This document shows positions 17,893-51,693 of a stretch of DNA of 64,000 bases, one piece after another. Under the pieces are notes generated by a model. It was given only the letters and a program-made list of their open reading frames with translations. It had not been told where the DNA came from and made no database searches. How positions within the stretch are numbered: position 1 is the stretch's first letter; every line of letters starts with the position of its first letter. This DNA comes from an uncultured Muribaculaceae bacterium. Lineage in GTDB: Bacteria; Bacillota_I; Bacilli_A; RF39; UBA660. Both the position numbers and the translations under genes were made by a program. The stretch covers positions 51,086 to 115,085 of the forward strand of contig CAYYQX010000001.1 in NCBI GenBank assembly GCA_964473455.1. Reading direction: 5' to 3'.

Positions 17893-17920
17893 ATAAAAAA
17901 AACAGTGTTAATTCACTGTT
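17893..17920 (-). terminator. intrinsic terminator of the Cys-rich/secreted protein operon
   Basis: Minus strand AACAGTG-AATTAA-CACTGTT followed by TTTTTTTT. The stem touches the TAA stop of the 358-aa gene. Confidence 0.8.
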
Positions 17921-18996
17921 TATTTTGTTTTAGTTTTTTGATCTAAAACGGACATATCGCCATTCATGTAAGCCTTATAGTCTTCTCTTGATAAAAGAAC
18001 ACATCCATCAGCAATATAATCTGTTTCTATTTCAGTTGTTGTATTTTCAGCATTTGCTAAATAAGTAATATAAGCTACTAACTCAGGTAATAACGTTACA
18101 TCACAATTTTCAATTGCTCTATCTGCTTTTACTAATGTCATATCATCTGGATATAAGTCTGTATAATGTTCTGAAAAATAAAATTTAACTTCATCTGCAG
18201 TAAACTTATCTTCCATTTCATTAGCTGTTATTCTTCTAAGCATTGCTCCACCAACTGTTCTTGCTGCAAGATCTCCACCAGGTGTCATTGGTTGCAAATT
18301 AGATGTTGCTTCTGAACCACTAGACATATGTGCATAGAAGTAATAAGATTCTTTAAATGCGCCATTTTCTGACATATCATCAAATCCTTGTTCAGCTAAA
18401 CGATAAATTGTGTCTTCACCATATTGTGTGTTTATTCTATTAACTGAATTATGATCCAATGGATAAGTATCCAATATTAATTTTCTATCTAAAGGTGTAT
18501 GTTCACAGCTGTCATCTAACATCATATTTCTATATGCTTCTTGATTATAAATTCTAATAGCACTAGCTGCCATACAAAAGTTGTTTAATAAAGTATTAAG
18601 AACTTTATTTGGCATTAATTCTGCTTCGAGATTTGCTCTTAGGTTTTCATCTAACAACTCTTTGTTTTTTACATAATATAATACTCTTGCATAAAAATCA
18701 ATATTATCAATTTTTAATACTGGAAAGTTTTCGTCTTTTTTGTTAGCTTCAATAGATCTTGCTTGTACTTCTTCATAATATTTTAAATATTCTTGAATGT
18801 CTTTTGCAGCTTGTTCACAAGAAATTACTGTTTCGCTAACATAGCTCTCGTATACATCACAATCAGTTGTTACTGTTGTAACTATAGCTTTTGATTGTCC
18901 TGTTACTGGATCAGTTAAACTAATATTTCCAGCAACAACATGTGACATGGTTGCTAATTGAATAACAAGCAATAATCCTGCTATTTTCTTTTTCAT
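17920..18996 (-). CDS. secreted hypothetical protein (Sec signal peptide, 8 Cys in the ORF)
   Basis: MKKKIAGLLLVIQLATMSHVVAG signal peptide. RBS AGGGGGA. Starts 14 nt after the stop of the upstream Cys-rich gene. No family recognised. Confidence 0.7.
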   Translation of the reverse strand: MKKKIAGLLLVIQLATMSHVVAGNISLTDPVTGQSKAIVTTVTTDCDVYESYVSETVISCEQAAKDIQEYLKYYEEVQARSIEANKKDENFPVLKIDNIDFYARVLYYVKNKELLDENLRANLEAELMPNKVLNTLLNNFCMAASAIRIYNQEAYRNMMLDDSCEHTPLDRKLILDTYPLDHNSVNRINTQYGEDTIYRLAEQGFDDMSENGAFKESYYFYAHMSSGSEATSNLQPMTPGGDLAARTVGGAMLRRITANEMEDKFTADEVKFYFSEHYTDLYPDDMTLVKADRAIENCDVTLLPELVAYITYLANAENTTTEIETDYIADGCVLLSREDYKAYMNGDMSVLDQKTKTK

Positions 18997-19010: not shown

Positions 19011-20561
19011 TTATTTACTTTCTTCCTTGACTTCTTCTTTTTTACCTGTTAATACATATCCGTTGTTTAACAAATCTTCATCCTTATCACTTAAACTCCA
19101 CTTATAATCTGTTGAACCACCTGTACAATATTTATCAGCATATCTATAATATGTTATTTGTTTTGTACATGTTGTTCCATTTAATGCATATCCTGTTGGA
19201 CAAGTTTTGTTTTCAGTTGGATTCTCTGTTTCAACTTCGTTAATTATTTTTTTACATTTTGTTTGATCTAATAAGTAATCGCTTCCATATTTATCACAAT
19301 TATATGTGATATTTTTATTGATTGATTTATTATCAGAAGTTGTACATGTTGTTCCACTTAAGCTTCCACCAGCTAAACAATAGTAACTATCATTACCTGA
19401 TGCACTATTTGTTATTGTACATGTTGTTCCATTTAAACTTCCGCCTTTTGGACAACTATATCCTGAAACATAAGCTACATCTTTTGTACATGTTGTATTT
19501 TTGTATGTACAACTTGTTTCGTATACTATTCCAACACCAGGTTCATAAACTGCGATATCAGAACAAACTTTAATTTTACAAGCGTATGTTTCTTTTCTAA
19601 CTGAGTATTCTGATGAACTTTGATAAGAATATATACAAGCTGTTCCAACTAATGTAAATACCTTGCCGTCAACATTATATTGATTACAGTTATATGTTGT
19701 TACTTTTTCTGCTGGTACTGTTGTAGTTGCTTTACAAGCATAACTAGTGTCGTTTTCATCTGAAACAACAACAGTTTGAACTTTTTGATTATTAACTAAA
19801 ACATATGCACCATCTTTTAATACATAATAATTACTTCCATAATTACTACAATTATATGTAACAACTTTTGTTGCGTCTTTTGCTTCTTCACCATTTACTG
19901 TTTTATTACATAATTTTGTTGTTTGGTTATATGAATATCCTTCTGGACAAGTATAACTTATTGTTGCATCTTGTGTTGAAGTACCTGTTTTTGTTTCAAC
20001 TTTTCTTGTACTAGTTGGAGCTACATAAGATGTTTGCCAATTTGACCAAGCACCAAAGTCAGTCCATGTACAAGGTGTTTCTTTCTTATATTCATATTTA
20101 AATACTTCTTTTATCTCACAAACATCGTTCTCACAATAATCATAACAACCTAAATGAACTAATATGTAATCTTCATCATCTGTACAAGACAAATAAATTT
20201 TCAAAACATATTCATCGCTGTTTTCTTTTGTTATTTGAACATAAGAAGTATTTATATTACACTTCTCGCCATTACTATCGTATAACTCTAGTAATAGTTT
20301 TTCGTCAATCATTTCACTTAAAGTCATTTTTTCACTTTTACCAATCACTTGTGGTAATCTTGGGTTTGTAAAATAACTCACTGCTGCTTCTTTCATTACT
20401 GTTAAATTGTCATTAAACAATTGTTTTGAATTAGCAATTTCCTTATCTTTCAAAAATGATTTTGATGGAAATAACCACAAAAGTATAAAGACAAATAACA
20501 TAATAAATAATAAATTAAATATTACGTCTTTAAGTGTGAATGATTCGTTTCTTCTTTCCAT
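19011..20561 (-). CDS. surface protein: degenerate prepilin-like N-terminus, pilin-head-like domain and Cys-rich mini-repeats
   Basis: N-terminus MERRNES|FTLKDVIFNLLFIMLFVFILLWLF (Ser at -1, Asp at +5). The head segment KMTLSEMIDEKLLLELYDSNGEKCNINTSYVQITKENSDEYVLKIYLSC parallels VLTLGELKDLGYIEDVINPMTNLSFPDTTFINISYENNDYVYEV of the 790-aa prepilin. C-x(10-11)-C units follow: CPEGYSYNQTTKLC, CPKGGSLNGTTC, CLAGGSLSGTTC, CPTGYALNGTTC. TYNC(S/N/D)xYG units are also present. Confidence 0.65.
   Translation of the reverse strand: MERRNESFTLKDVIFNLLFIMLFVFILLWLFPSKSFLKDKEIANSKQLFNDNLTVMKEAAVSYFTNPRLPQVIGKSEKMTLSEMIDEKLLLELYDSNGEKCNINTSYVQITKENSDEYVLKIYLSCTDDEDYILVHLGCYDYCENDVCEIKEVFKYEYKKETPCTWTDFGAWSNWQTSYVAPTSTRKVETKTGTSTQDATISYTCPEGYSYNQTTKLCNKTVNGEEAKDATKVVTYNCSNYGSNYYVLKDGAYVLVNNQKVQTVVVSDENDTSYACKATTTVPAEKVTTYNCNQYNVDGKVFTLVGTACIYSYQSSSEYSVRKETYACKIKVCSDIAVYEPGVGIVYETSCTYKNTTCTKDVAYVSGYSCPKGGSLNGTTCTITNSASGNDSYYCLAGGSLSGTTCTTSDNKSINKNITYNCDKYGSDYLLDQTKCKKIINEVETENPTENKTCPTGYALNGTTCTKQITYYRYADKYCTGGSTDYKWSLSDKDEDLLNNGYVLTGKKEEVKEESK
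19164..19455 (-). repeat. three dispersed copies of a ~40-nt coding repeat inside the Cys-rich gene
   Basis: The copies start at 19164, 19341 and 19416 and share the 21-nt core TGTACATGTTGTTCCA(T/C)TTAA. The first and third cores are identical; the second has one mismatch. They encode (L)(N/S)GTTCT at the end of the CxxGxxLxGTTC units. A shorter fourth copy, TGTACATGTTGT, lies at 19466. Confidence 0.85.
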
Positions 20562-38605: not shown

Positions 38606-39331
38606 TCATCTCTCCATATAAATATAGTTTAAAATACTTAAAACAAATATTGGAACTGTTTCTACTCTAAGTATTCTGTTACCTAGAGAAACACTTTTAA
38701 ATCCTTTTTCGTTAAGTATTTTTTCTTCTATACTAGTTAACCCACCTTCGGGTCCAATTACTACACATATACTATCACATTTTAACGAATTTGAAAATAT
38801 TTTTGCTAAATTTGTACTTTTTTCTTTTGTACTACAAACTATCTTAAGTTCATCAACCACATCTATTTCTATTAATTTTTTTATATCTAAAATTGTTGGA
38901 ACTGTATTTCTTTTGGCTTGTTCACTAGCTTCTTTGACAATTTTTTCCCATCTGGTTATTTTTTTTACATAATCTTTTTCATTTAATTTGACAAGTGTCC
39001 GGTCAGTAAAAACCGGGATAATTTTATTTACGCCTAGCTCTGTGCTCTTTTGAAGAATAAGATCCATTTTTTGTTCTTTAACAATTGGAACTACTAAAGT
39101 AATTGGCAAAATTTTTTGAAGTTCTTGTTTTTCTTCTTCTATTTTTATAAAAATATTTTCTTTTATAAAGTCTATATAACAAATATATAGTTTTTCTTCA
39201 TAAATAACTTCTATTTTATCTTTTGCTTTCATTCGCATAACTTTTGTTATGTGCCTTATATCTTTTTCATCTAAAATAAACTCGTTATTTTTTTTTGAAA
39301 TAGCAAAGTATCTTTGTAGATTATTCTTCAT
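38606..39331 (-). CDS. rsmE: 16S rRNA (uracil1498-N3)-methyltransferase
   Basis: QRYFA N-terminus, HITKVMRMK, QKSTELGV, GPEGGL and LGNRILRVETV motifs of RsmE. Confidence 0.88.
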   Translation of the reverse strand: MKNNLQRYFAISKKNNEFILDEKDIRHITKVMRMKAKDKIEVIYEEKLYICYIDFIKENIFIKIEEEKQELQKILPITLVVPIVKEQKMDLILQKSTELGVNKIIPVFTDRTLVKLNEKDYVKKITRWEKIVKEASEQAKRNTVPTILDIKKLIEIDVVDELKIVCSTKEKSTNLAKIFSNSLKCDSICVVIGPEGGLTSIEEKILNEKGFKSVSLGNRILRVETVPIFVLSILNYIYMER

Positions 39332-40787
39332 AAGCGTTTACTCTTTTCCCTTGTGAATTTTCGGCTGTATTTACTGATATTACACTAGTCCAGTTTGAAT
39401 TATCAATAGAAGCATATGTTACGTTACTGTTATAGGTTCTAGAATCTCCATAATAGTGCCAAACAGCAATTTCATCAAGATCATATATTGCGCCTAAATC
39501 AAGTATAACGCATTGTAAACCAGTAGATAAAAATGTATAGTTTGTTGTTGTTATATCTCCATCAGTTATATAAGTTGCTCCGTTTACAGTAGATGTTCCT
39601 GTTACTGTTTTTCCCTTAGCTAAATTGACACCATTTTTAATGGCTTGTAATTCTACCCAGTGATTATCAGAATCAGATGAACTGCCGTTTATACAGTCTT
39701 TGATATATCTAACATTGTTTAAATTTTCGTTAGTTACTACTGGATCGGTATCTGAAAAATAAGATATTTTTGCCATACCGTTTCCTTCATTTACTCCTGC
39801 TTCCATATAACCATCTAGAAAATAAAGACTCGAATAATGTAAGGTGCTTCCTGTTGGAGTTGTACTTGAAGAAGATGTTATACCATTTACTCCAGCATAA
39901 CCTGATATAAAAGATGAACCACCGGCTCCAGAGGATACACCACTCGATATATATCCGGAACCGCCACCTCCATAATAGCCTGATCCACCACCACTACCAT
40001 GGCTAACGTTACTAGCACCGCCGGCACCAAATACTCCTGGCATACCAACTCCTGCTGATCCACCAGCTGTTCCACCTGATTTTTGTGTTCCTCCTGTTGC
40101 TAAGGTGTGCGCTACAGAACTAACATTTAACTGCCCATTTAGTCCTATAAGGCACCCTCCAGCTCCACCCGAAACAGCATTTACCCAATTGGATGCACCA
40201 GCACCGCCTGAAGCAACCATTATTCTAGAAGCTAATGATTCAGCACTATTCCAAGCACCAGAAGTTATTCTGATATCTGTTGACCCACCGCCCCCACCAG
40301 AATTTTGTTCAGAAGTGCCGCCAACTAGTCCGGCTCCTCCTCCGTTATAACCACCCAAAGCTTGGGTGCCAATTAAAGTACCTCCATCTTGCCCTTTACC
40401 ACCAATATATATATATAGTGTTTGATTTGCAGTTAGAAAAATTTTCCCATTAATGTATGACCCCTTGCCACCAAGAACAATACTGCCTGTCCCATTAGCA
40501 TTATATCTTGTATTTCCTCCTTGAGCTCCCCAAAGCTCAATTTCATACCACCCAGAATAAGGTGCGGTAAAAGTTTGGCTACTTCCAGTATACGAAAAAA
40601 ATCTTTCATAAACTCCATCATTTGTGTTTTCTTCATCCAAAGATGTTTTAACATCGTTCTTTATTTTGTTTAAAATTAATTTACTATTAATCATAGCTAT
40701 CATAAGCATAGACAAAATAACTATAAAAATAACTAAAATAGAATATAAAAAACCTGTTATCACAAAACCCTTATTGTTTTTTTTCAT
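39321..40787 (-). CDS. membrane-anchored (degenerate prepilin-like) glycine-rich-module protein with a discoidin-like C-terminal domain
   Basis: Start ATG 40785-40787 with AGGTGG upstream. N-terminus MKKNNKG|FVITGFLYSILVIFIVIL (no Glu at +5). Gly-rich module FSYTGSSQTFTAPYSGWYEIELWGAQGG...GGYNGGGAG...GGGGGSTDIR...VASGGAGA...GGGSGYYGGGGSG...GNGMAKISY. C-terminus NVRYIKDCINGS...NHWVELQAI...LQCVILDLGAIYDLDEIAVWHY...SNWTSV. Paralog of 59711-62083. Confidence 0.75.
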   Translation of the reverse strand: MKKNNKGFVITGFLYSILVIFIVILSMLMIAMINSKLILNKIKNDVKTSLDEENTNDGVYERFFSYTGSSQTFTAPYSGWYEIELWGAQGGNTRYNANGTGSIVLGGKGSYINGKIFLTANQTLYIYIGGKGQDGGTLIGTQALGGYNGGGAGLVGGTSEQNSGGGGGSTDIRITSGAWNSAESLASRIMVASGGAGASNWVNAVSGGAGGCLIGLNGQLNVSSVAHTLATGGTQKSGGTAGGSAGVGMPGVFGAGGASNVSHGSGGGSGYYGGGGSGYISSGVSSGAGGSSFISGYAGVNGITSSSSTTPTGSTLHYSSLYFLDGYMEAGVNEGNGMAKISYFSDTDPVVTNENLNNVRYIKDCINGSSSDSDNHWVELQAIKNGVNLAKGKTVTGTSTVNGATYITDGDITTTNYTFLSTGLQCVILDLGAIYDLDEIAVWHYYGDSRTYNSNVTYASIDNSNWTSVISVNTAENSQGKRVNAYEE

Positions 40788-40807
40788 ATATACCACCTAT
40801 TTTAATA

Positions 40808-40836
40808 ATTATATAATAAGATTAAATCAATGTAAA
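40808..40836 (-). promoter_or_regulatory. sigma-A promoter of the glycine-rich gene / rsmE unit
   Basis: Minus strand TTTACA (40836-31), 17-nt spacer, TATAAT (40813-08). Confidence 0.6.
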
Positions 40837-40837
40837 T

Positions 40838-40859
40838 AAAAAGACAGATTTTATCTGCC
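40838..40859 (-). terminator. intrinsic terminator after the 271-aa ORF
   Basis: Minus strand GGCAGAT-AAA-ATCTGTC (one G-U pair) followed by TTTTTATTT. Overlaps the stop of the 271-aa gene. Confidence 0.55.
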
Positions 40860-41666
40860 TAATGTTTTTTGACGACCTTTACCTATAACTGCATTATCTT
40901 CAATAATCTGTTTCAATCTTCTATCAGGTTGTACCAAACCTTGTAGTTTTTCTACTAAAGTTAATGGCTGAATATACGGATGAAATAAAGGGTCGTTTCC
41001 CAATTCCTTACATACATTCCTCATTCCAAGATTATTTAATTGTTCAAACACAATTCTTAATATTTCTTTTAAGTGATCAGTATTTAATATTTCTTTGACA
41101 TATCGATCAAAGTGTTTTTCATCTGTTTCAAAAAATTCTTGATTCTCACCAGAAATATAACCAATGCCTATTCCTTCTTGAAGTGTAGTTAATTTTATTC
41201 TAAATATTTTATCGCCAATCTGTTCAAAATATTGAAAATGATTTCTTTCTTCTTCGCTCTTGTCTATTTGTATAATTATTCTACAGTTGTCAGCAAGCGC
41301 GATATCTAATTCCATTAATGTTTCTTTTAATCTCAAACAAAGAAGTATTTTATCTCCTAAACCAGTACATGTAATAGACTTCCTAGGATGTCCATTTTCT
41401 GGGTGGAAACTAATTCTTTTTGAAAGACCTTTGTCATTCATTTCAATAGCAGCTTGATTATTATTGTATATTTGAATATGTATATTTTGCTTTCCCCAAG
41501 TACTTCTTAATTCTACTTTTCCTTCTTCTTCTGTTTTATCAGTTAAATGCACTACTGGATTTAGACTGTCAAAAGTAATGTTTGTAATATTAAATGTACC
41601 ATTAATTAGTCTTAGATTAAAAAGCTCTAGGAGCTGATTAATTGTTTCATATTGTTTTTGATTCAT
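40851..41666 (-). CDS. hypothetical protein (271 aa)
   Basis: Long ORF starting 8 nt after the RNase J stop. No recognisable motif. Confidence 0.55.
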   Translation of the reverse strand: MNQKQYETINQLLELFNLRLINGTFNITNITFDSLNPVVHLTDKTEEEGKVELRSTWGKQNIHIQIYNNNQAAIEMNDKGLSKRISFHPENGHPRKSITCTGLGDKILLCLRLKETLMELDIALADNCRIIIQIDKSEEERNHFQYFEQIGDKIFRIKLTTLQEGIGIGYISGENQEFFETDEKHFDRYVKEILNTDHLKEILRIVFEQLNNLGMRNVCKELGNDPLFHPYIQPLTLVEKLQGLVQPDRRLKQIIEDNAVIGKGRQKTLGR

Positions 41667-49737: not shown

Positions 49738-51693
49738 TTACCAGCCAAGTACATATGGATTAGTCATTGTTCCGCTTCCAGATTCTATCTTCATTGTAGA
49801 TATTAAATTAAATGTCGGGCGAACATTAGCATACGTAACAGAAGCAACCGCACCATAAATATGACCATAATTACTCATTAAAGATATATTTCTGTTTGAA
49901 GCGTTTTCTCTATTTATTAATAAAACATTAGTATTTAAATCGTTCCCGCTAAACATATCTCCCCATATTGGCATTCCAATTTTTGCACTAACTACACCGT
50001 CACTTATTCTTGTTGGATATGTCCCAGAAGTATCCGTATTAAACAAACTTCTAACATAATCTAGTCCGTTTGCATATACATTCAAGTTCCAGTTTGCATT
50101 TACTATTTTAGTCTGAACACTACTACTAAGCCACGTATAAAAACCATTGGTCGTATTGTTTAGAAAATACCCTACGTTTTCTCCATCAGCATACGCATAG
50201 GCACCACTTCCTTGAGTTGGTTTAAAGTAATTATTATCATTACATCCTGTATACACAGCCACAGCTGAATCACAAGAATTAGCTAAGTAGAAATACGGAA
50301 CATTTATACCAGAACTCATTGCTACTGTGCTTGATAGCCCTCTTAAAATATCCGCTCTTTGAATCATTATTGTTCCATCACTATTTACTCCAATTACCCT
50401 GTATCTTACTTTTGTTTTATCGTAGGTATAACTTATTCTGCTTGTTGTTCTTTCTAGTGTATTAACAGATGTATTCCCACTACCTTCTTCACTTATATAG
50501 ATATATGATCCTACAGTTACTGTATTTAAATAATCACCACTGTCTTTTTCTTCATTGACCGTTAAAATATATGGATTTTTTGCCATTCCATATTTATCAT
50601 CAGCGTTTATGCCATCCTCTTTGGATTCTATTAATAAATCAGCACTCAAATAAATTACTGGTCTTACTCCTTGGGCATTTGTATTTGTAGCGGCAACTAG
50701 CGCTGTATCATATGTTACGTATGAACTATTATCATTATGAGTTGACCACAGTTGAGTTGTTGTTCCGTGTTTTGTTATTGTAAAACTTCTTTCGTCTTCA
50801 TCTAGAAAGCTTCCACCTAGACTTCCACTTACTGTTCCATCTAAAGCATAAACATAATCTTCAAATGTTAATAGTCCTACTTTATCTGTAGATACACTTG
50901 AACAGTTTGATATTGAAGTAAAACTTGTTACTTTGCCACTTGTCAATGTTATCCCACTTGGTTCATCTAAACAGAAATTTCCTGTTAATAAAAGGTCTGT
51001 TCTACTTAGATTATTATAATATATTCCATCTTGTTCTGAATTACTGTCTATTTCATTTAACCACTTTCTTACCCATGAACTACTCCATGTATTAGTATCT
51101 CCATAAGAAATAGCTGTTACTGAATTTGCAGTTACTAGTTTAACATAATTAGATGTTGTTTCTAATACTTGCCATAATTGACCTGAATACCATACCCAAT
51201 TTTTGATAGTTGCCTTATCTGTTTTATTTCCAATGACTTTCGTTACACTTGTTCCATTAACACTTTTACTTGTTAAGTGAGTAGCTCCTATATTAGTCTC
51301 TACAACCGTTTTTAACGTTCCAGCGCTTGTTGCTTTTTTACAATATGCCAAAATATTTTCACTATTACATATATATCCATTTATTACTAAATCTGTTGCA
51401 TTATATGTTCCATCAGCATTTAGTGTTACACTTCCACTAGTTGGATTCTCGCCACTTAAAATTATATCTTCATTTGGGAATGTTATTGTTAGCGGCAGCG
51501 TTTCTTCTGTACCCAATTGACTCTCTGCATAATAATTTTGAACGGCTTTTACTACACTTAAAGTTGAATTTTCTTTTGCTTCTCTTCTGGTATCTTCAAT
51601 TATATTTAAAATTATAGGGGTTGCAATAACAGCAATAACGGCAATTATCACTATTACTGCTAAAAGCTCTATTAAGGTGAATCCTTTTTTCAT
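49738..51693 (-). CDS. modular prepilin-type protein (class III signal peptide, pilin head, two large repeated C-terminal modules)
   Basis: MKKG|FTLIELLAVIVIIAVIAVIATPIILNII is a canonical prepilin cleavage/methylation motif with Glu+5. Two modules follow with DUF6273-like landmarks: LWQVLETTSNYVKLV...NTWSSSWVRKWLNE...VGLLTFEDY...GVRPVIYL, and a second copy ending ANVRPTFNL. RBS AGGAG. Confidence 0.75.
   Translation of the reverse strand: MKKGFTLIELLAVIVIIAVIAVIATPIILNIIEDTRREAKENSTLSVVKAVQNYYAESQLGTEETLPLTITFPNEDIILSGENPTSGSVTLNADGTYNATDLVINGYICNSENILAYCKKATSAGTLKTVVETNIGATHLTSKSVNGTSVTKVIGNKTDKATIKNWVWYSGQLWQVLETTSNYVKLVTANSVTAISYGDTNTWSSSWVRKWLNEIDSNSEQDGIYYNNLSRTDLLLTGNFCLDEPSGITLTSGKVTSFTSISNCSSVSTDKVGLLTFEDYVYALDGTVSGSLGGSFLDEDERSFTITKHGTTTQLWSTHNDNSSYVTYDTALVAATNTNAQGVRPVIYLSADLLIESKEDGINADDKYGMAKNPYILTVNEEKDSGDYLNTVTVGSYIYISEEGSGNTSVNTLERTTSRISYTYDKTKVRYRVIGVNSDGTIMIQRADILRGLSSTVAMSSGINVPYFYLANSCDSAVAVYTGCNDNNYFKPTQGSGAYAYADGENVGYFLNNTTNGFYTWLSSSVQTKIVNANWNLNVYANGLDYVRSLFNTDTSGTYPTRISDGVVSAKIGMPIWGDMFSGNDLNTNVLLINRENASNRNISLMSNYGHIYGAVASVTYANVRPTFNLISTMKIESGSGTMTNPYVLGW

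What the first reader, a model, noticed from the sequence alone, without database searches (positions are those of the whole stretch)
39321..40836. Shorter paralog of the glycine-rich/discoidin protein with a degenerate prepilin N-terminus, overlapping rsmE
The 488-aa product repeats the glycine-rich module of the 790-aa protein (FSYTGSSQTFTAPYSGWYEIELWGAQGG ... GNGMAKISY). It also repeats the C-terminal domain. Compare NVRYIKDCINGSSSDSDNHWVELQAIKNG...LQCVILDLGAIYDLDEIAVWHY with NVRYVKDCINGSTVNAGNHWVELKAIKDG...LQCITIDLGQIYDLNQITVWHY. The N-terminus is MKKNNKG|FVITGFLYSIL, with Gly rather than Glu at +5. There is no pilin head and there are no Ig-like repeats. The gene has its own TTTACA-17-TATAAT promoter. 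Its last 11 nt overlap the start of the rRNA methyltransferase gene rsmE. A surface-protein gene is therefore embedded in a housekeeping transcription unit. Pilins lacking Glu5 are typically minor or tip-located subunits, which would fit an adhesin role.
Basis: partly seen in the sequence, partly recalled or inferred. Interest (0 to 1): 0.7.

Follow-up and report, generated by a model that had tools for sequence, protein, structure and literature searches.

The report
Glu5-less pilin-like adhesin with ALK-type domain
This is a real gene in an uncultured gut bacterium for a surface protein that joins a pilin-like anchoring helix lacking the usual glutamate to a glycine-rich domain of the kind found in the human ALK receptor and in phage tail fibres; it is one member of a large, uncharacterised family rather than a one-off oddity.

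Summary
A 488-aa ORF lies on the minus strand (39321-40787). It has a TTTACA-17-TATAAT box and an AGGTGG ribosome-binding site, and it overlaps rsmE by 11 nt. It shares two modules with the 790-aa protein at 59711-62083.

The glycine-rich module is a definite PF12810 ALK/LTK glycine-rich domain (137 bits; the fold search returns only ALK/LTK at the top). The C-terminal beta-sandwich resembles CBM32/F5-8 type C only weakly by sequence, and the fold search did not confirm it. Both modules also occur in phage tail proteins.

The N-terminus is not a decayed prepilin signal. It belongs to a conserved subclass: a K/N-rich leader, invariant Gly-1, Ser/Thr at +4, Thr/Gly at +5 and invariant Tyr at +8. 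Relatives carrying it range from about 57-aa helix-only proteins to 650-aa lectin fusions.

Relatives with canonical Glu5 signals plus this glycine-rich domain sit beside pilB, pilC and pilD, so the family is linked to type IV pili. The Glu5-less subclass is rarely encoded there (2 ORFs in 80 PilB loci). Pilus incorporation of this protein is therefore inferred, not shown.

The position upstream of rsmE is conserved in one other species. Verdict: a new variant of the known modular-pilin kind, of moderate interest.

The parts
39321..40787 (-). CDS of the 488-aa glycine-rich-domain protein (ATG at 40787, TAA stop at 39323-39321)
   Evidence: ORF list and sequence. Identical protein P0001 on a Logan contig from sample SRR8925806. 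More than 3000 homologs.
40808..40836 (-). Sigma-70-like promoter motif: TTTACA, 17-nt spacer, TATAAT
   Evidence: An 11/12 match. Chance expectation is about 6.5 such sites per 64 kb on both strands.
40842..40860 (-). Terminator-like hairpin with T-run at the end of the upstream 271-aa gene; the T-run runs into the -35 box
   Evidence: 8-bp stem, 3-nt loop, TTTTATTT tail.
40793..40798 (-). Shine-Dalgarno sequence AGGTGG, 5 nt before the ATG
   Evidence: Read from the sequence.
40767..40787 (-). Leader MKKNNKG (residues 1-7), ending in the invariant Gly (putative prepilin-peptidase site G|F)
   Evidence: Gly is invariant in 25 aligned N-termini. Leaders have the same form as those of Glu5 pilins in the same family. 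hhalign places the two classes in register.
40635..40766 (-). Long N-terminal helix (residues 8-51). The first ~26 residues are hydrophobic, with Gly at +5 and Tyr at +8. No globular pilin head follows.
   Evidence: AlphaFold model: helix 6-51, pLDDT 90-92 over residues 11-30 and about 52 over 41-60. Position statistics.
39753..40607 (-). ALK/LTK-type TNF-like plus glycine-rich (TG) domain, residues 61-345
   Evidence: PF12810 at 137 bits. Profile hits to ALK, LTK and SCD-2 structures at E=1.8e-11 to 1e-7. The top 21 Foldseek PDB hits are all ALK/LTK. PHROGs 7388, 1589 and 5811 at E about 1e-32.
39324..39725 (-). C-terminal beta-sandwich, residues 355-488, with two invariant Cys (C365, C426); a distant CBM32/F5-8 type C-like module
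   Evidence: 56% identity to the 790-aa paralog. Model pLDDT 95. All 25 family members hit PF22633 at E<=0.01. PDB profile hits are all CBM32 modules at E=0.001-0.12. PHROG 21973 'tail protein' at E=1.7e-17. Foldseek PDB gave no hit at E<=1e-3.
39321..39331 (-). 11-nt overlap ATGAAGAATAA between the end of the CDS and the rsmE start
38606..39331 (-). rsmE (16S rRNA U1498 methyltransferase), the downstream gene and probably co-transcribed
   Evidence: TIGR00046 at 190 bits; PF04452 and PF20260. No terminator-like site lies between the genes.
59711..62083 (-). 790-aa paralog: canonical prepilin signal (KKG|FTLIE), HYR/Ig-like region, PF12810 domain and the same C-terminal module
49738..51693 (-). 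Another canonical prepilin-type protein (651 aa, MKKG|FTLIE) in the same window
   Evidence: PF07963 at 27 bits; sequence.

Best explanation
**What it is.** The gene encodes a three-part extracytoplasmic protein.
1. A short Lys/Asn-rich leader ends in Gly. It is followed by a ~45-residue helix whose first ~26 residues are hydrophobic. This is a prepilin-like N-terminus of a distinct conserved subclass, with Thr/Gly instead of Glu at +5 and an invariant Tyr at +8.
2. An ALK/LTK-type TNF-like plus polyglycine (TG) domain.
3. A small beta-sandwich distantly related to CBM32/F5-8 type C lectin modules.

**Most likely mechanism.** It is a head-less modular pilin-like adhesin. The prepilin peptidase removes the leader after Gly7. 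The helix holds the protein in the membrane and then in the core of a type IV filament built from Glu5-bearing pilins, such as the 651-aa and 790-aa proteins of this window. Lacking Glu5, it would be the first subunit added and so sit at the tip, as GspK, ComGG and S. sanguinis PilA do. From there the glycine-rich and lectin-like modules bind a glycan or protein ligand on host mucus or on other cells. The gene is transcribed from its own promoter, and transcription reads through into rsmE.

**Shown here:** the domain identities, the conservation of the N-terminal subclass, linkage of the wider family to pilB/pilC/pilD, and the gene arrangement.

**Inferred:** cleavage, pilus incorporation, tip location, the ligand, and co-transcription.
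For: **Domain identities.** PF12810 scores 137 bits. The family profile matches ALK, LTK and SCD-2 structures, and the fold search finds the same.

**N-terminal subclass.** Among the top 120 homologs, about 22 share the Glu5-less N-terminus. About 28 have the canonical GFxxxE form, with the same kind of 4-8-residue K/N-rich leader. Gly-1 and Tyr+8 are invariant in 25 sequences that otherwise share only 20-40% identity. hhalign aligns the two classes in register, with G|F on G|F and T/G opposite E5 (probability 88%).

**Family link to type IV pili.** PilB lies within 4 kb of the glycine-rich-domain gene in 8 of 40 related loci. L025 reads PilC, PilD, PilB (opposite strand), then a glycine-rich-domain pilin, then an N_methyl pilin.

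**Glu5-less members in pilin operons.**
- L019 and L035: PilB (opposite strand), then a Glu5 glycine-rich-domain pilin, a 176-aa pilin, and a Glu5-less protein with Ig, glycine-rich and F5/8C domains.
- L038: a Glu5-less 301-aa protein followed by three Glu5 pilin-like proteins.
- L013: a Glu5-less protein with glycine-rich, F5/8C and Ricin domains followed by an N_methyl pilin.

**A portable carrier.** At the rsmD-to-hrcA site the same N-terminal unit appears alone in 57-59-aa proteins that end in a Cys pair. At the same site it also appears fused to glycine-rich and lectin domains.

**Structure.** The model has a helix at 6-51 followed by a flexible linker.

**Precedents in the literature.** Modular pilins are described in PMC8179133, whose Dataset S1 already lists the architecture IPR012902-PF12810. 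Glu5-less subunits at the tip or as the priming subunit are described in PMC9934059 and PMC8727766.

**Binding role.** Both modules occur in phage tail proteins.
Against: - No pilin HMM (PF07963, TIGR02532, ComG or Gsp models) matches the N-terminus, even at permissive thresholds.
- There is no globular pilin head.
- No pilB or pilD was found in the 64-kb window; pilC was not probed. The rest of the genome could not be read.
- In 80 PilB-centred loci of relatives (1.07 Mb) there are 64 canonical prepilin ORFs but only 2 Glu5-less ones. Only 3 of the 80 carry a glycine-rich-domain gene.
- Most Glu5-less genes are solitary among housekeeping genes.
- About 49 of the top 120 homologs carry a third kind of N-terminus (a TM helix followed by SYALF[ST]D). 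The glycine-rich module is therefore not tied to pili.
- L019 and L035 are close relatives (PilB 91% identical), so they count as a single observation.
Confidence: 0.5

Rival explanations
1. It is a membrane-anchored surface protein. The N-terminal segment acts simply as a signal-anchor (N-in, C-out) transmembrane helix, cleaved or not. The protein stays at the cell membrane and works independently of any type IV filament.
For: - No pilin HMM hit, no Glu5 and no pilin head.
- The gene is solitary among housekeeping genes here and in L002.
- Glu5-less ORFs are not enriched near PilB.
- Tiny proteins with the same N-terminus are also solitary.
- Paralogs with a different TM-type N-terminus carry the same modules.
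Against: - An invariant Gly directly before the hydrophobic stretch, and a leader of the same form as bona fide prepilins of the same lineage, are not needed for a plain anchor.
- Only about 10-20 linker residues separate the helix from the glycine-rich domain. The organism makes peptidoglycan, judged by eye from the N-terminal sequences of ORFs that look like murB, murC and murG. The binding modules would therefore sit under the wall.
- Some Glu5-less members lie inside pilin operons next to PilB.
Confidence: 0.33
2. It is a phage-derived receptor-binding protein, either a prophage remnant or a tailocin fibre, fortuitously lying next to rsmE.
For: - The glycine-rich domain matches PHROGs 7388, 1589 and 5811, and the C-terminal domain matches PHROG 21973 'tail protein'.
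- 114 viral structure hits, including tail fibres of Bacillus phages JL and CP-51.
- Bxb1 tail tip and Pam3 fibre appear in the PDB search.
Against: - No phage genes flank it. Its neighbours are RNase J, rsmE, an Asn/Asp-tRNA synthetase and a purine-nucleoside phosphorylase.
- The same position is kept in another species whose flanking proteins are only 42-66% identical.
- It has an N-terminal leader and a hydrophobic helix, which tail fibres lack.
- The family runs to thousands of chromosomal copies, often in tandem arrays.
Confidence: 0.05
3. The ORF is not expressed or is decaying. The promoter motif and the overlap with rsmE are chance features.
For: An 11/12 promoter match is expected about 6 times per window by chance. 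No expression data are available.
Against: - The 1467-nt ORF is intact, with a good ribosome-binding site.
- A full-length ortholog at 49% identity lies at the same site.
- Family-invariant residues are kept.
- AlphaFold gives pLDDT 90 and pTM 0.85.
Confidence: 0.03

Closest known systems
Modular type IV pilins (Streptococcus sanguinis PilB with a vWA module and PilC with a lectin module; the catalogue of 'IPR012902 + extra domain' architectures in PMC8179133)
   Same: An N-terminal pilin-type helix is joined by a short flexible linker to a bulky binding module. They are predicted to sit at the tip and to act as adhesins. The architecture IPR012902-PF12810 is already listed in that paper's Dataset S1 (3 proteins), and the window's 790-aa paralog fits it.
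   Different: The 488-aa protein has no IPR012902/N_methyl match, no Glu5 and no pilin head at all. S. sanguinis PilB and PilC keep Glu5 and a small pilin fold. The gene is not in a pil operon.
Glu5-less minor pilins: GspK/PilX (the K subunit of the HIJK tip complex), ComGG of competence pili, and S. sanguinis PilA
   Same: They lack Glu5 while keeping the Gly-1 cleavage context. Those proteins prime or cap the filament (PMC9934059, PMC8727766). In L019 and L035 the Glu5-less member is the last and largest gene of a three-pilin operon, as K is.
   Different: There is no sequence match to T2SSK, ComGG or any pilin model. The signature differs (Ser/Thr+4, Thr/Gly+5, Tyr+8). It is usually encoded away from other pilins.
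Extracellular TG (TNF-like + glycine-rich) domain of the metazoan receptor kinases ALK, LTK and SCD-2 (PF12810; PDB 7LIR, 7LS0, 7N00, 7NWZ, 7NX0)
   Same: The same Pfam family at 137 bits. Shared motifs include GYY.IE.WGA.GG, GGGGATD.R, AAGGGG, GGGGGYYGG and GSSFIS. The predicted fold retrieves only these structures at the top.
   Different: This is a bacterial protein with no kinase, no EGF-like module and no ALKAL-type ligand. Identity is 14-20% and TM-scores are 0.33-0.48. Its function in bacteria is unknown.
Phage tail-fibre and tail-tip proteins with glycine-rich domains (Bxb1 tail tip 9D93 chain Q, cyanophage Pam3 fibre 7YPX, PHROGs 7388, 1589, 5811 and 21973, tail fibres of Bacillus phages JL and CP-51)
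   Same: Both modules of the 488-aa protein have phage counterparts. This points to a receptor-binding role.
   Different: The phage proteins lack the leader and hydrophobic helix, and they are encoded in tail gene clusters.
CBM32 / F5-8 type C (discoidin) carbohydrate-binding modules (Clostridium perfringens GH89, GH31 and GH84; Paenibacillus chitosanase DD domains)
   Same: All profile hits of the C-terminal domain in the PDB are CBM32 modules. All 25 family members hit PF22633. Orthologous domains in L013 and L019 pass Pfam's cut-off.
   Different: This copy is below the Pfam cut-off (19-22 bits against 27.8). The high-confidence model found no discoidin or CBM32 structure with Foldseek (best E=0.03, TM 0.35-0.39).

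Membership tests
PF12810 ALK/LTK glycine-rich domain | HMM score above Pfam's gathering cut-off over most of the model | tested here: met
   137.1 bits against 24.5; model positions 7-242 of 243; residues 78-343.
PF12810 ALK/LTK glycine-rich domain | Sequence-profile relationship to the solved ALK, LTK and SCD-2 TG domains | tested here: met
   The family profile hits 7LIR at E=1.8e-11, and ALK and LTK at 1e-8 to 1e-7, with motif-by-motif alignment.
PF12810 ALK/LTK glycine-rich domain | Predicted fold matches the TNF-like/glycine-rich supradomain | tested here: met
   The top 21 Foldseek PDB hits are all ALK/LTK, at E=1e-8 to 1e-5 and probability 1.0. TM-scores are only 0.33-0.48.
PF12810 ALK/LTK glycine-rich domain | Lattice of polyglycine-II helices | not testable with these tools
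Type IV pilin (class III signal peptide; IPR012902, PF07963, TIGR02532) | Short charged leader ending in Gly, followed directly by about 20 hydrophobic residues | tested here: met
   MKKNNKG|FVITGFLYSILVIFIVILSMLMIAMI. Gly is invariant in the subclass.
Type IV pilin (class III signal peptide; IPR012902, PF07963, TIGR02532) | Match to the N-terminal methylation-motif HMMs | tested here: not met
   No PF07963 or TIGR02532 hit at E<=0.1. The 790-aa paralog hits both.
Type IV pilin (class III signal peptide; IPR012902, PF07963, TIGR02532) | Glu at position +5 of the mature protein | tested here: not met
   Gly at +5. The subclass has Thr or Gly in 17 of 21 sequences; canonical relatives have Glu in 24 of 24.
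Type IV pilin (class III signal peptide; IPR012902, PF07963, TIGR02532) | Extended alpha-1 helix of about 50 residues | tested here: met
   AlphaFold helix at 6-51.
Type IV pilin (class III signal peptide; IPR012902, PF07963, TIGR02532) | Globular alpha-beta head packed on alpha-1C | tested here: not met
   The helix is followed by a disordered linker (residues 46-57, pLDDT below 50) and then the glycine-rich domain.
Type IV pilin (class III signal peptide; IPR012902, PF07963, TIGR02532) | Genetic linkage to pilB, pilC and pilD | tested here: inconclusive
   No pilB or pilD was found in the window; pilC was not probed. The family is linked in 8 of 40 loci. Glu5-less ORFs are found in only 2 of 80 PilB loci.
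Type IV pilin (class III signal peptide; IPR012902, PF07963, TIGR02532) | Cleavage and N-methylation by the prepilin peptidase; presence in filaments | not testable with these tools
   This needs biochemistry.
Glu5-less tip or priming minor pilins (GspK/PilX, ComGG) | Sequence membership (T2SSK Pfam model, NCBIfam ComGG model) | tested here: not met
   No hits for this protein or for five other Glu5-less relatives at E<=1.
Glu5-less tip or priming minor pilins (GspK/PilX, ComGG) | Encoded in an operon with Glu5-bearing minor pilins | tested here: inconclusive
   Not so in the window or in L002. It is so in L019/L035, L038 and L013.
F5/8 type C (discoidin) / CBM32 | Pfam score above the gathering cut-off | tested here: not met
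   PF22633 at 19.2-22.4 bits against 27.8; PF00754 at 13.3 against 28.2. Orthologous domains in L013 (37.0) and L019 (32.1) pass.
F5/8 type C (discoidin) / CBM32 | Predicted fold matches solved discoidin or CBM32 structures | tested here: not met
   The domain model has pLDDT 95, yet Foldseek PDB gives no hit at E<=1e-3. The best hit is a DUF4425 structure at E=0.03.
F5/8 type C (discoidin) / CBM32 | Consistent remote sequence similarity to CBM32 modules | tested here: inconclusive
   All 8 PDB profile hits are CBM32 modules, but at E=0.001-0.12. phmmer gives E=0.0015.

The most novel reading that the evidence does not exclude
The Glu5-less N-terminus (K/N-rich leader, Gly | Phe-x-x-Ser/Thr-Thr/Gly-x-x-Tyr) may define a class of head-less type IV pilin-like proteins in RF39-type gut Bacilli that current HMMs cannot see. 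The class would run from roughly 57-aa 'mini-pilins' made of a helix plus a Cys loop up to 650-aa modular adhesins. On this reading, the 488-aa protein is the tip subunit that presents an ALK-type TNF-like/polyglycine domain and a lectin-like module. The same two modules are exchanged with phage tail fibres, which may bear on where the metazoan ALK/LTK ligand-binding domain came from.
Probability: 0.3. Interest if true: 0.6.

Novelty: new variant of a known kind. Interest (0 to 1): 0.4.

Why it matters
If the Glu5-less N-terminus is a true prepilin signal, surveys of modular pilins that rely on the N_methyl/IPR012902 signature miss a whole subclass in abundant, uncultured gut Bacilli. These organisms would then display ALK-type glycine-rich domains and lectin modules on pili, which gives candidate adhesins for host or inter-bacterial attachment. 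The family also offers many bacterial and phage homologs of the ALK/LTK ligand-binding fold, useful for studying how that unusual polyglycine architecture evolved and what it binds. If the N-terminus is only a membrane anchor, the gene is simply one more copy of a large uncharacterised surface-protein family.

Tried and rejected
**Searches that led nowhere**
- A protein search with the N-terminal 50 aa alone found nothing, because of the tool's shared-word requirement. A profile of 25 N-termini worked but appears biased towards short proteins, since P0001 and P0004 were not listed.
- Literature searches for bacterial PF12810 proteins and for the Bxb1 tail-tip glycine-rich protein gave nothing usable.
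- The genome of the window itself is not in the genome collection (best hit 53% identity). The presence of pilB, pilC and pilD in this organism could therefore not be checked.
It was repeated without them.

**Ideas tested and not supported**
- I expected Glu5-less or glycine-rich-domain genes to be common next to PilB. In 80 PilB-centred loci, only 3 carry a glycine-rich-domain gene and 2 a Glu5-less ORF.
- I suspected the third N-terminal class (TM helix followed by SYALF[ST]D) to be a SipW/TasA-type signal. That was a recollection; NCBIfam gave no such hit at E<=1, so it remains untested.
- A prophage origin was considered because of the PHROG and viral hits. I rejected it on gene context and conserved synteny.
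- The GTG start at 40796 was rejected because it lies inside the Shine-Dalgarno sequence.


Full report
**1. The observation**

The ORF is on the minus strand at 39321-40787 (ATG start, 488 aa). The ORF lister's GTG start at 40796 falls inside the AGGTGG Shine-Dalgarno sequence, so the ATG is the real start.

Upstream lie TTTACA (40836-40831), a 17-nt spacer and TATAAT (40813-40808). This is an 11/12 match and the second-best site in the 8.6 kb scanned. Sites that good occur 13 times in the window against 6.5 +/- 2.7 in shuffles. The motif is plausible because of where it sits, not because it is rare. A terminator-like hairpin (40860-40842) ends the upstream 271-aa gene. No terminator-like site lies between the ORF and rsmE.

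The stop codon sits inside ATGAAGAATAA, giving an 11-nt overlap with rsmE. rsmE identity is confirmed (TIGR00046, 190 bits).

The 790-aa protein at 59711-62083 shares the C-terminal 152 aa at 56% identity (E=7e-50) and the start of the glycine-rich module at 64% over 25 aa.

**2. The three parts of the protein**

An AlphaFold model built on 41 homologs is confident (pLDDT 90.4, pTM 0.85). It shows a helix at 6-51, a disordered linker, a mostly non-helical domain at 61-345 and a beta-sandwich at 355-488.

*The middle domain.* It is PF12810, the ALK/LTK glycine-rich domain, at 137 bits against a cut-off of 24.5.
- The family profile hits the solved TG domains of C. elegans SCD-2 (E=1.8e-11), human ALK and LTK (E about 1e-8). 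The glycine motifs line up.
- The top 21 Foldseek PDB hits are all ALK or LTK. TM-scores are modest, at 0.33-0.48.
- The next hits are phage proteins: the Bxb1 tail tip and the cyanophage Pam3 fibre.

*The C-terminal domain.* This is less clear.
- This copy is below Pfam's cut-off for F5_F8_type_C_2 (19-22 bits against 27.8).
- All 25 family copies tested hit that model at E<=0.01, and 19 hit PF00754.
- The same domain in L013 (37 bits) and L019 (32 bits) passes the cut-off.
- Every PDB hit of a domain profile is a CBM32 module, but only at E=0.001-0.12.
- Against that, a pLDDT-95 model of the domain found no PDB structure at E<=1e-3 with Foldseek.

I therefore call it a lectin-like beta-sandwich distantly related to CBM32, not a demonstrated discoidin domain. 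Two cysteines (C365, C426) are invariant in it, which fits an extracytoplasmic location.

*Phage counterparts.* Both modules have them.
- The glycine-rich domain matches PHROGs 7388, 1589 and 5811 at E about 1e-32.
- The C-terminal domain matches PHROG 36443 (E=2e-20) and PHROG 21973 'tail protein' (E=1.7e-17).
- Tail fibres of Bacillus phages JL and CP-51 match over 135 columns at rmsd 1.7 A. I infer, but could not check, that this is the C-terminal domain.

**3. The family**

More than 3000 proteins match at E<=1e-5 among the 8000 candidates scored. The few that carry names are called 'glycine-rich protein' or 'glycine rich domain-containing protein', from 'Bacilli bacterium' MAGs.

Related loci come from uncultured Bacilli, Mollicutes and Tenericutes MAGs. 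A scan for PilB relatives in the same lineages also returned Mycoplasma sp. CAG:611. From my own knowledge this is the RF39-type lineage; I did not test that.

Genomes carry several copies, often in tandem, with at least 10 in L027. The window's two paralogs are no closer to each other than to proteins of other species. They are old paralogs, not a recent duplication.

**4. The N-terminus**

Among the top 120 homologs I see three kinds of N-terminus.
- About 28 have a canonical prepilin signal (K/R-G|F-x-x-x-E).
- About 22 have the form of this protein.
- About 49 have a TM helix followed by SYALF[ST]D.

In the second class, position +1 is Phe in 15 of 21 sequences. Position +4 is Ser/Thr in 19 of 21, +5 is Thr/Gly in 17 of 21, and +8 is Tyr in 20 of 21. 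The canonical class has Glu at +5 in 24 of 24.

In 25 aligned sequences that share only 20-40% identity, Gly-1 and Tyr+8 are invariant. Leaders have the same length and composition in both classes. hhalign puts the two classes in register, with G|F on G|F (probability 88%).

This is therefore a conserved subclass, not a degenerate signal. No pilin HMM recognises it.

**5. Is it a pilin? Evidence for**

- The family is tied to type IV pili. PilB lies within 4 kb of the glycine-rich-domain gene in 8 of 40 related loci.
- L025 reads PilC (T2SSF), PilD (peptidase A24), PilB (T2SSE, opposite strand), then a glycine-rich-domain pilin and an N_methyl pilin.
- Glu5-less members occur inside pilin operons in L019/L035, L038 and L013.
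- The N-terminal unit behaves as a portable carrier. Directly downstream of rsmD, and upstream of hrcA-grpE-dnaK, relatives have one of two things. Some have a 57-59-aa protein that is only this helix plus a C-terminal Cys pair. Others have the same helix fused to glycine-rich, F5/8C and Ricin domains.
- The literature gives precedents. Modular pilins are widespread, and the architecture IPR012902-PF12810 is already listed in Dataset S1 of PMC8179133. The Glu5-less subunits GspK, S. sanguinis PilA and ComGG prime or cap filaments (PMC9934059, PMC8727766).

**6. Is it a pilin? Evidence against**

- No pilB or pilD was found in the window by a tblastn probe; pilC was not probed. The rest of this genome was not available.
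- A scan for PilB found more than 591 relatives, so the machinery is common in this lineage.
- In the 80 PilB-centred loci fetched (1.07 Mb) there are 64 canonical prepilin ORFs and only 2 Glu5-less ones. Only 3 loci carry a glycine-rich-domain gene.
- Most Glu5-less genes, including the tiny ones, are solitary among housekeeping genes.
- L019 and L035 are close relatives and count as one observation.
- The protein has no pilin head.
- The third N-terminal class shows that the modules are also exported by another route.

I put the pilus-tip reading at about 0.5 and a plain membrane anchor at about 0.33.

**7. Gene context**

The neighbours are housekeeping genes. In transcription order they are:
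1. a metallophosphoesterase;
2. RNase J;
3. a 271-aa protein with no family match;
4. this gene;
5. rsmE;
6. a 158-aa TM protein;
7. an Asn/Asp-tRNA synthetase;
8. a purine-nucleoside phosphorylase.

In the MAG Bacilli bacterium STD2_232 (L002) the order is metallophosphoesterase, RNase J, a 448-aa ortholog (49% identical, same N-terminus), rsmE, the TM protein and the phosphorylase. The 271-aa gene is missing there, and an 8-nt gap replaces the overlap. Flanking proteins are 42-66% identical, so the placement is old while the overlap is not conserved.

In L095, rsmE follows dnaJ as in other Firmicutes, with no such gene before it. Co-transcription with rsmE is likely from the layout but untested.

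**8. Comparison with known systems, and verdict**

It works most like a modular pilin adhesin. It fails three defining pilin tests (HMM match, Glu5, head), so I do not file it as a type IV pilin. It is a secure member of PF12810.

The novelty lies in the conserved Glu5-less, head-less carrier helix and its combination with an ALK-type domain. The wider family and the pilin-plus-PF12810 architecture were already in databases.

I rate it a new variant of a known kind, with moderate interest (0.4).

Noticed in passing
window 59711-62083 (-): The 790-aa paralog is a canonical modular pilin: an N_methyl signal KKG|FTLIE, an HYR/Ig-like region, PF12810 and the same C-terminal module. It overlaps the upstream alpha/beta-hydrolase gene (62067-62777) by 17 nt. 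A SpoU/TrmH-type RNA methyltransferase gene, rimM and trmD follow it.
   Followed up: partly
window 49738-51693 (-): A third pilin-like gene: 651 aa, MKKG|FTLIE, with PF07963 as its only Pfam hit. It also sits alone among housekeeping genes (a SecDF-like gene downstream and a Tex-like gene upstream, judged by eye).
   Followed up: partly
window 19011-20561 (-) and 17920-18996 (-): A 516-aa protein starts MERRNES|FTLKDVIFNLLFIMLFVF, a pilin-like layout with Ser at -1 and Asp at +5. It has no family hit apart from a sub-threshold Colicin_E5 match. A 358-aa protein with a hydrophobic N-terminus and no family hit follows it.
   Followed up: no
homologs P0006-P0120: About 49 of the top 120 homologs carry a third N-terminus: a TM helix followed by a conserved (G/T)(T/S)(Y/F)A(L/I/V)(F/L)(T/S)(D) motif. 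From memory this resembles SipW/TasA-camelysin-type signal peptides, but NCBIfam gave no such hit. The same glycine-rich and lectin modules therefore appear to be exported by at least two, perhaps three, routes.
   Followed up: partly
P0121-P0240; L122-L130: There are many complete proteins of 50-90 aa with the Glu5-less N-terminus. They consist of MNNKG|FAISTILYG..., a hydrophobic helix, an amphipathic stretch (...IEEELN) and a C-terminal Cys pair or Cys-rich tail. They lie on long contigs, for example between a polysaccharide deacetylase gene and tgt (L122-L124), or directly after rsmD (L125, L128). They look like helix-only mini-pilins.
   Followed up: partly
window 38606-39331 and 58921-59646; L013, L028, L029, L125, L128: Pilin-like genes of this family sit next to RNA methyltransferase genes in three different ways. 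This gene lies before rsmE (here and in L002). The 790-aa paralog lies before a SpoU/TrmH-type gene. Glu5-less genes lie directly after rsmD in five loci. This may only reflect small, housekeeping-dense genomes.
   Followed up: partly
L027 (CAMNEE010000002.1, uncultured Bacillales bacterium): A tandem array of at least 10 PF12810-type genes lies within 18 kb.
   Followed up: no
L044, L050, L064, L085, L095: In relatives, the PilB locus lies within a few kb of orthologs of genes that flank the pilin-like genes in this window: RNase J, rsmE, the Asn/Asp-tRNA synthetase, SpoU with RimM, and the alpha/beta hydrolase. The scattered pilin genes here may be remnants of, or dispersed from, such a locus.
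   Followed up: partly
window 40851-41666 (-): A 271-aa ORF between RNase J and this gene has no Pfam or NCBIfam family (best E=0.002, far below cut-off). It is absent from the syntenic locus L002.
   Followed up: partly
L122-L124: Relatives that carry the tiny Glu5-less proteins also encode SpoVAC, SpoVAD, SpoVAEB and a CotZ-like protein. At least some of these reduced-genome Bacilli therefore keep sporulation genes.
   Followed up: no
PMC8179133 Dataset S2: One PilY1-type protein (IPR008707) in that catalogue also carries PF12810. The ALK-type glycine-rich domain has thus been recruited to pilus-tip proteins in diderm bacteria by a second route.
   Followed up: no
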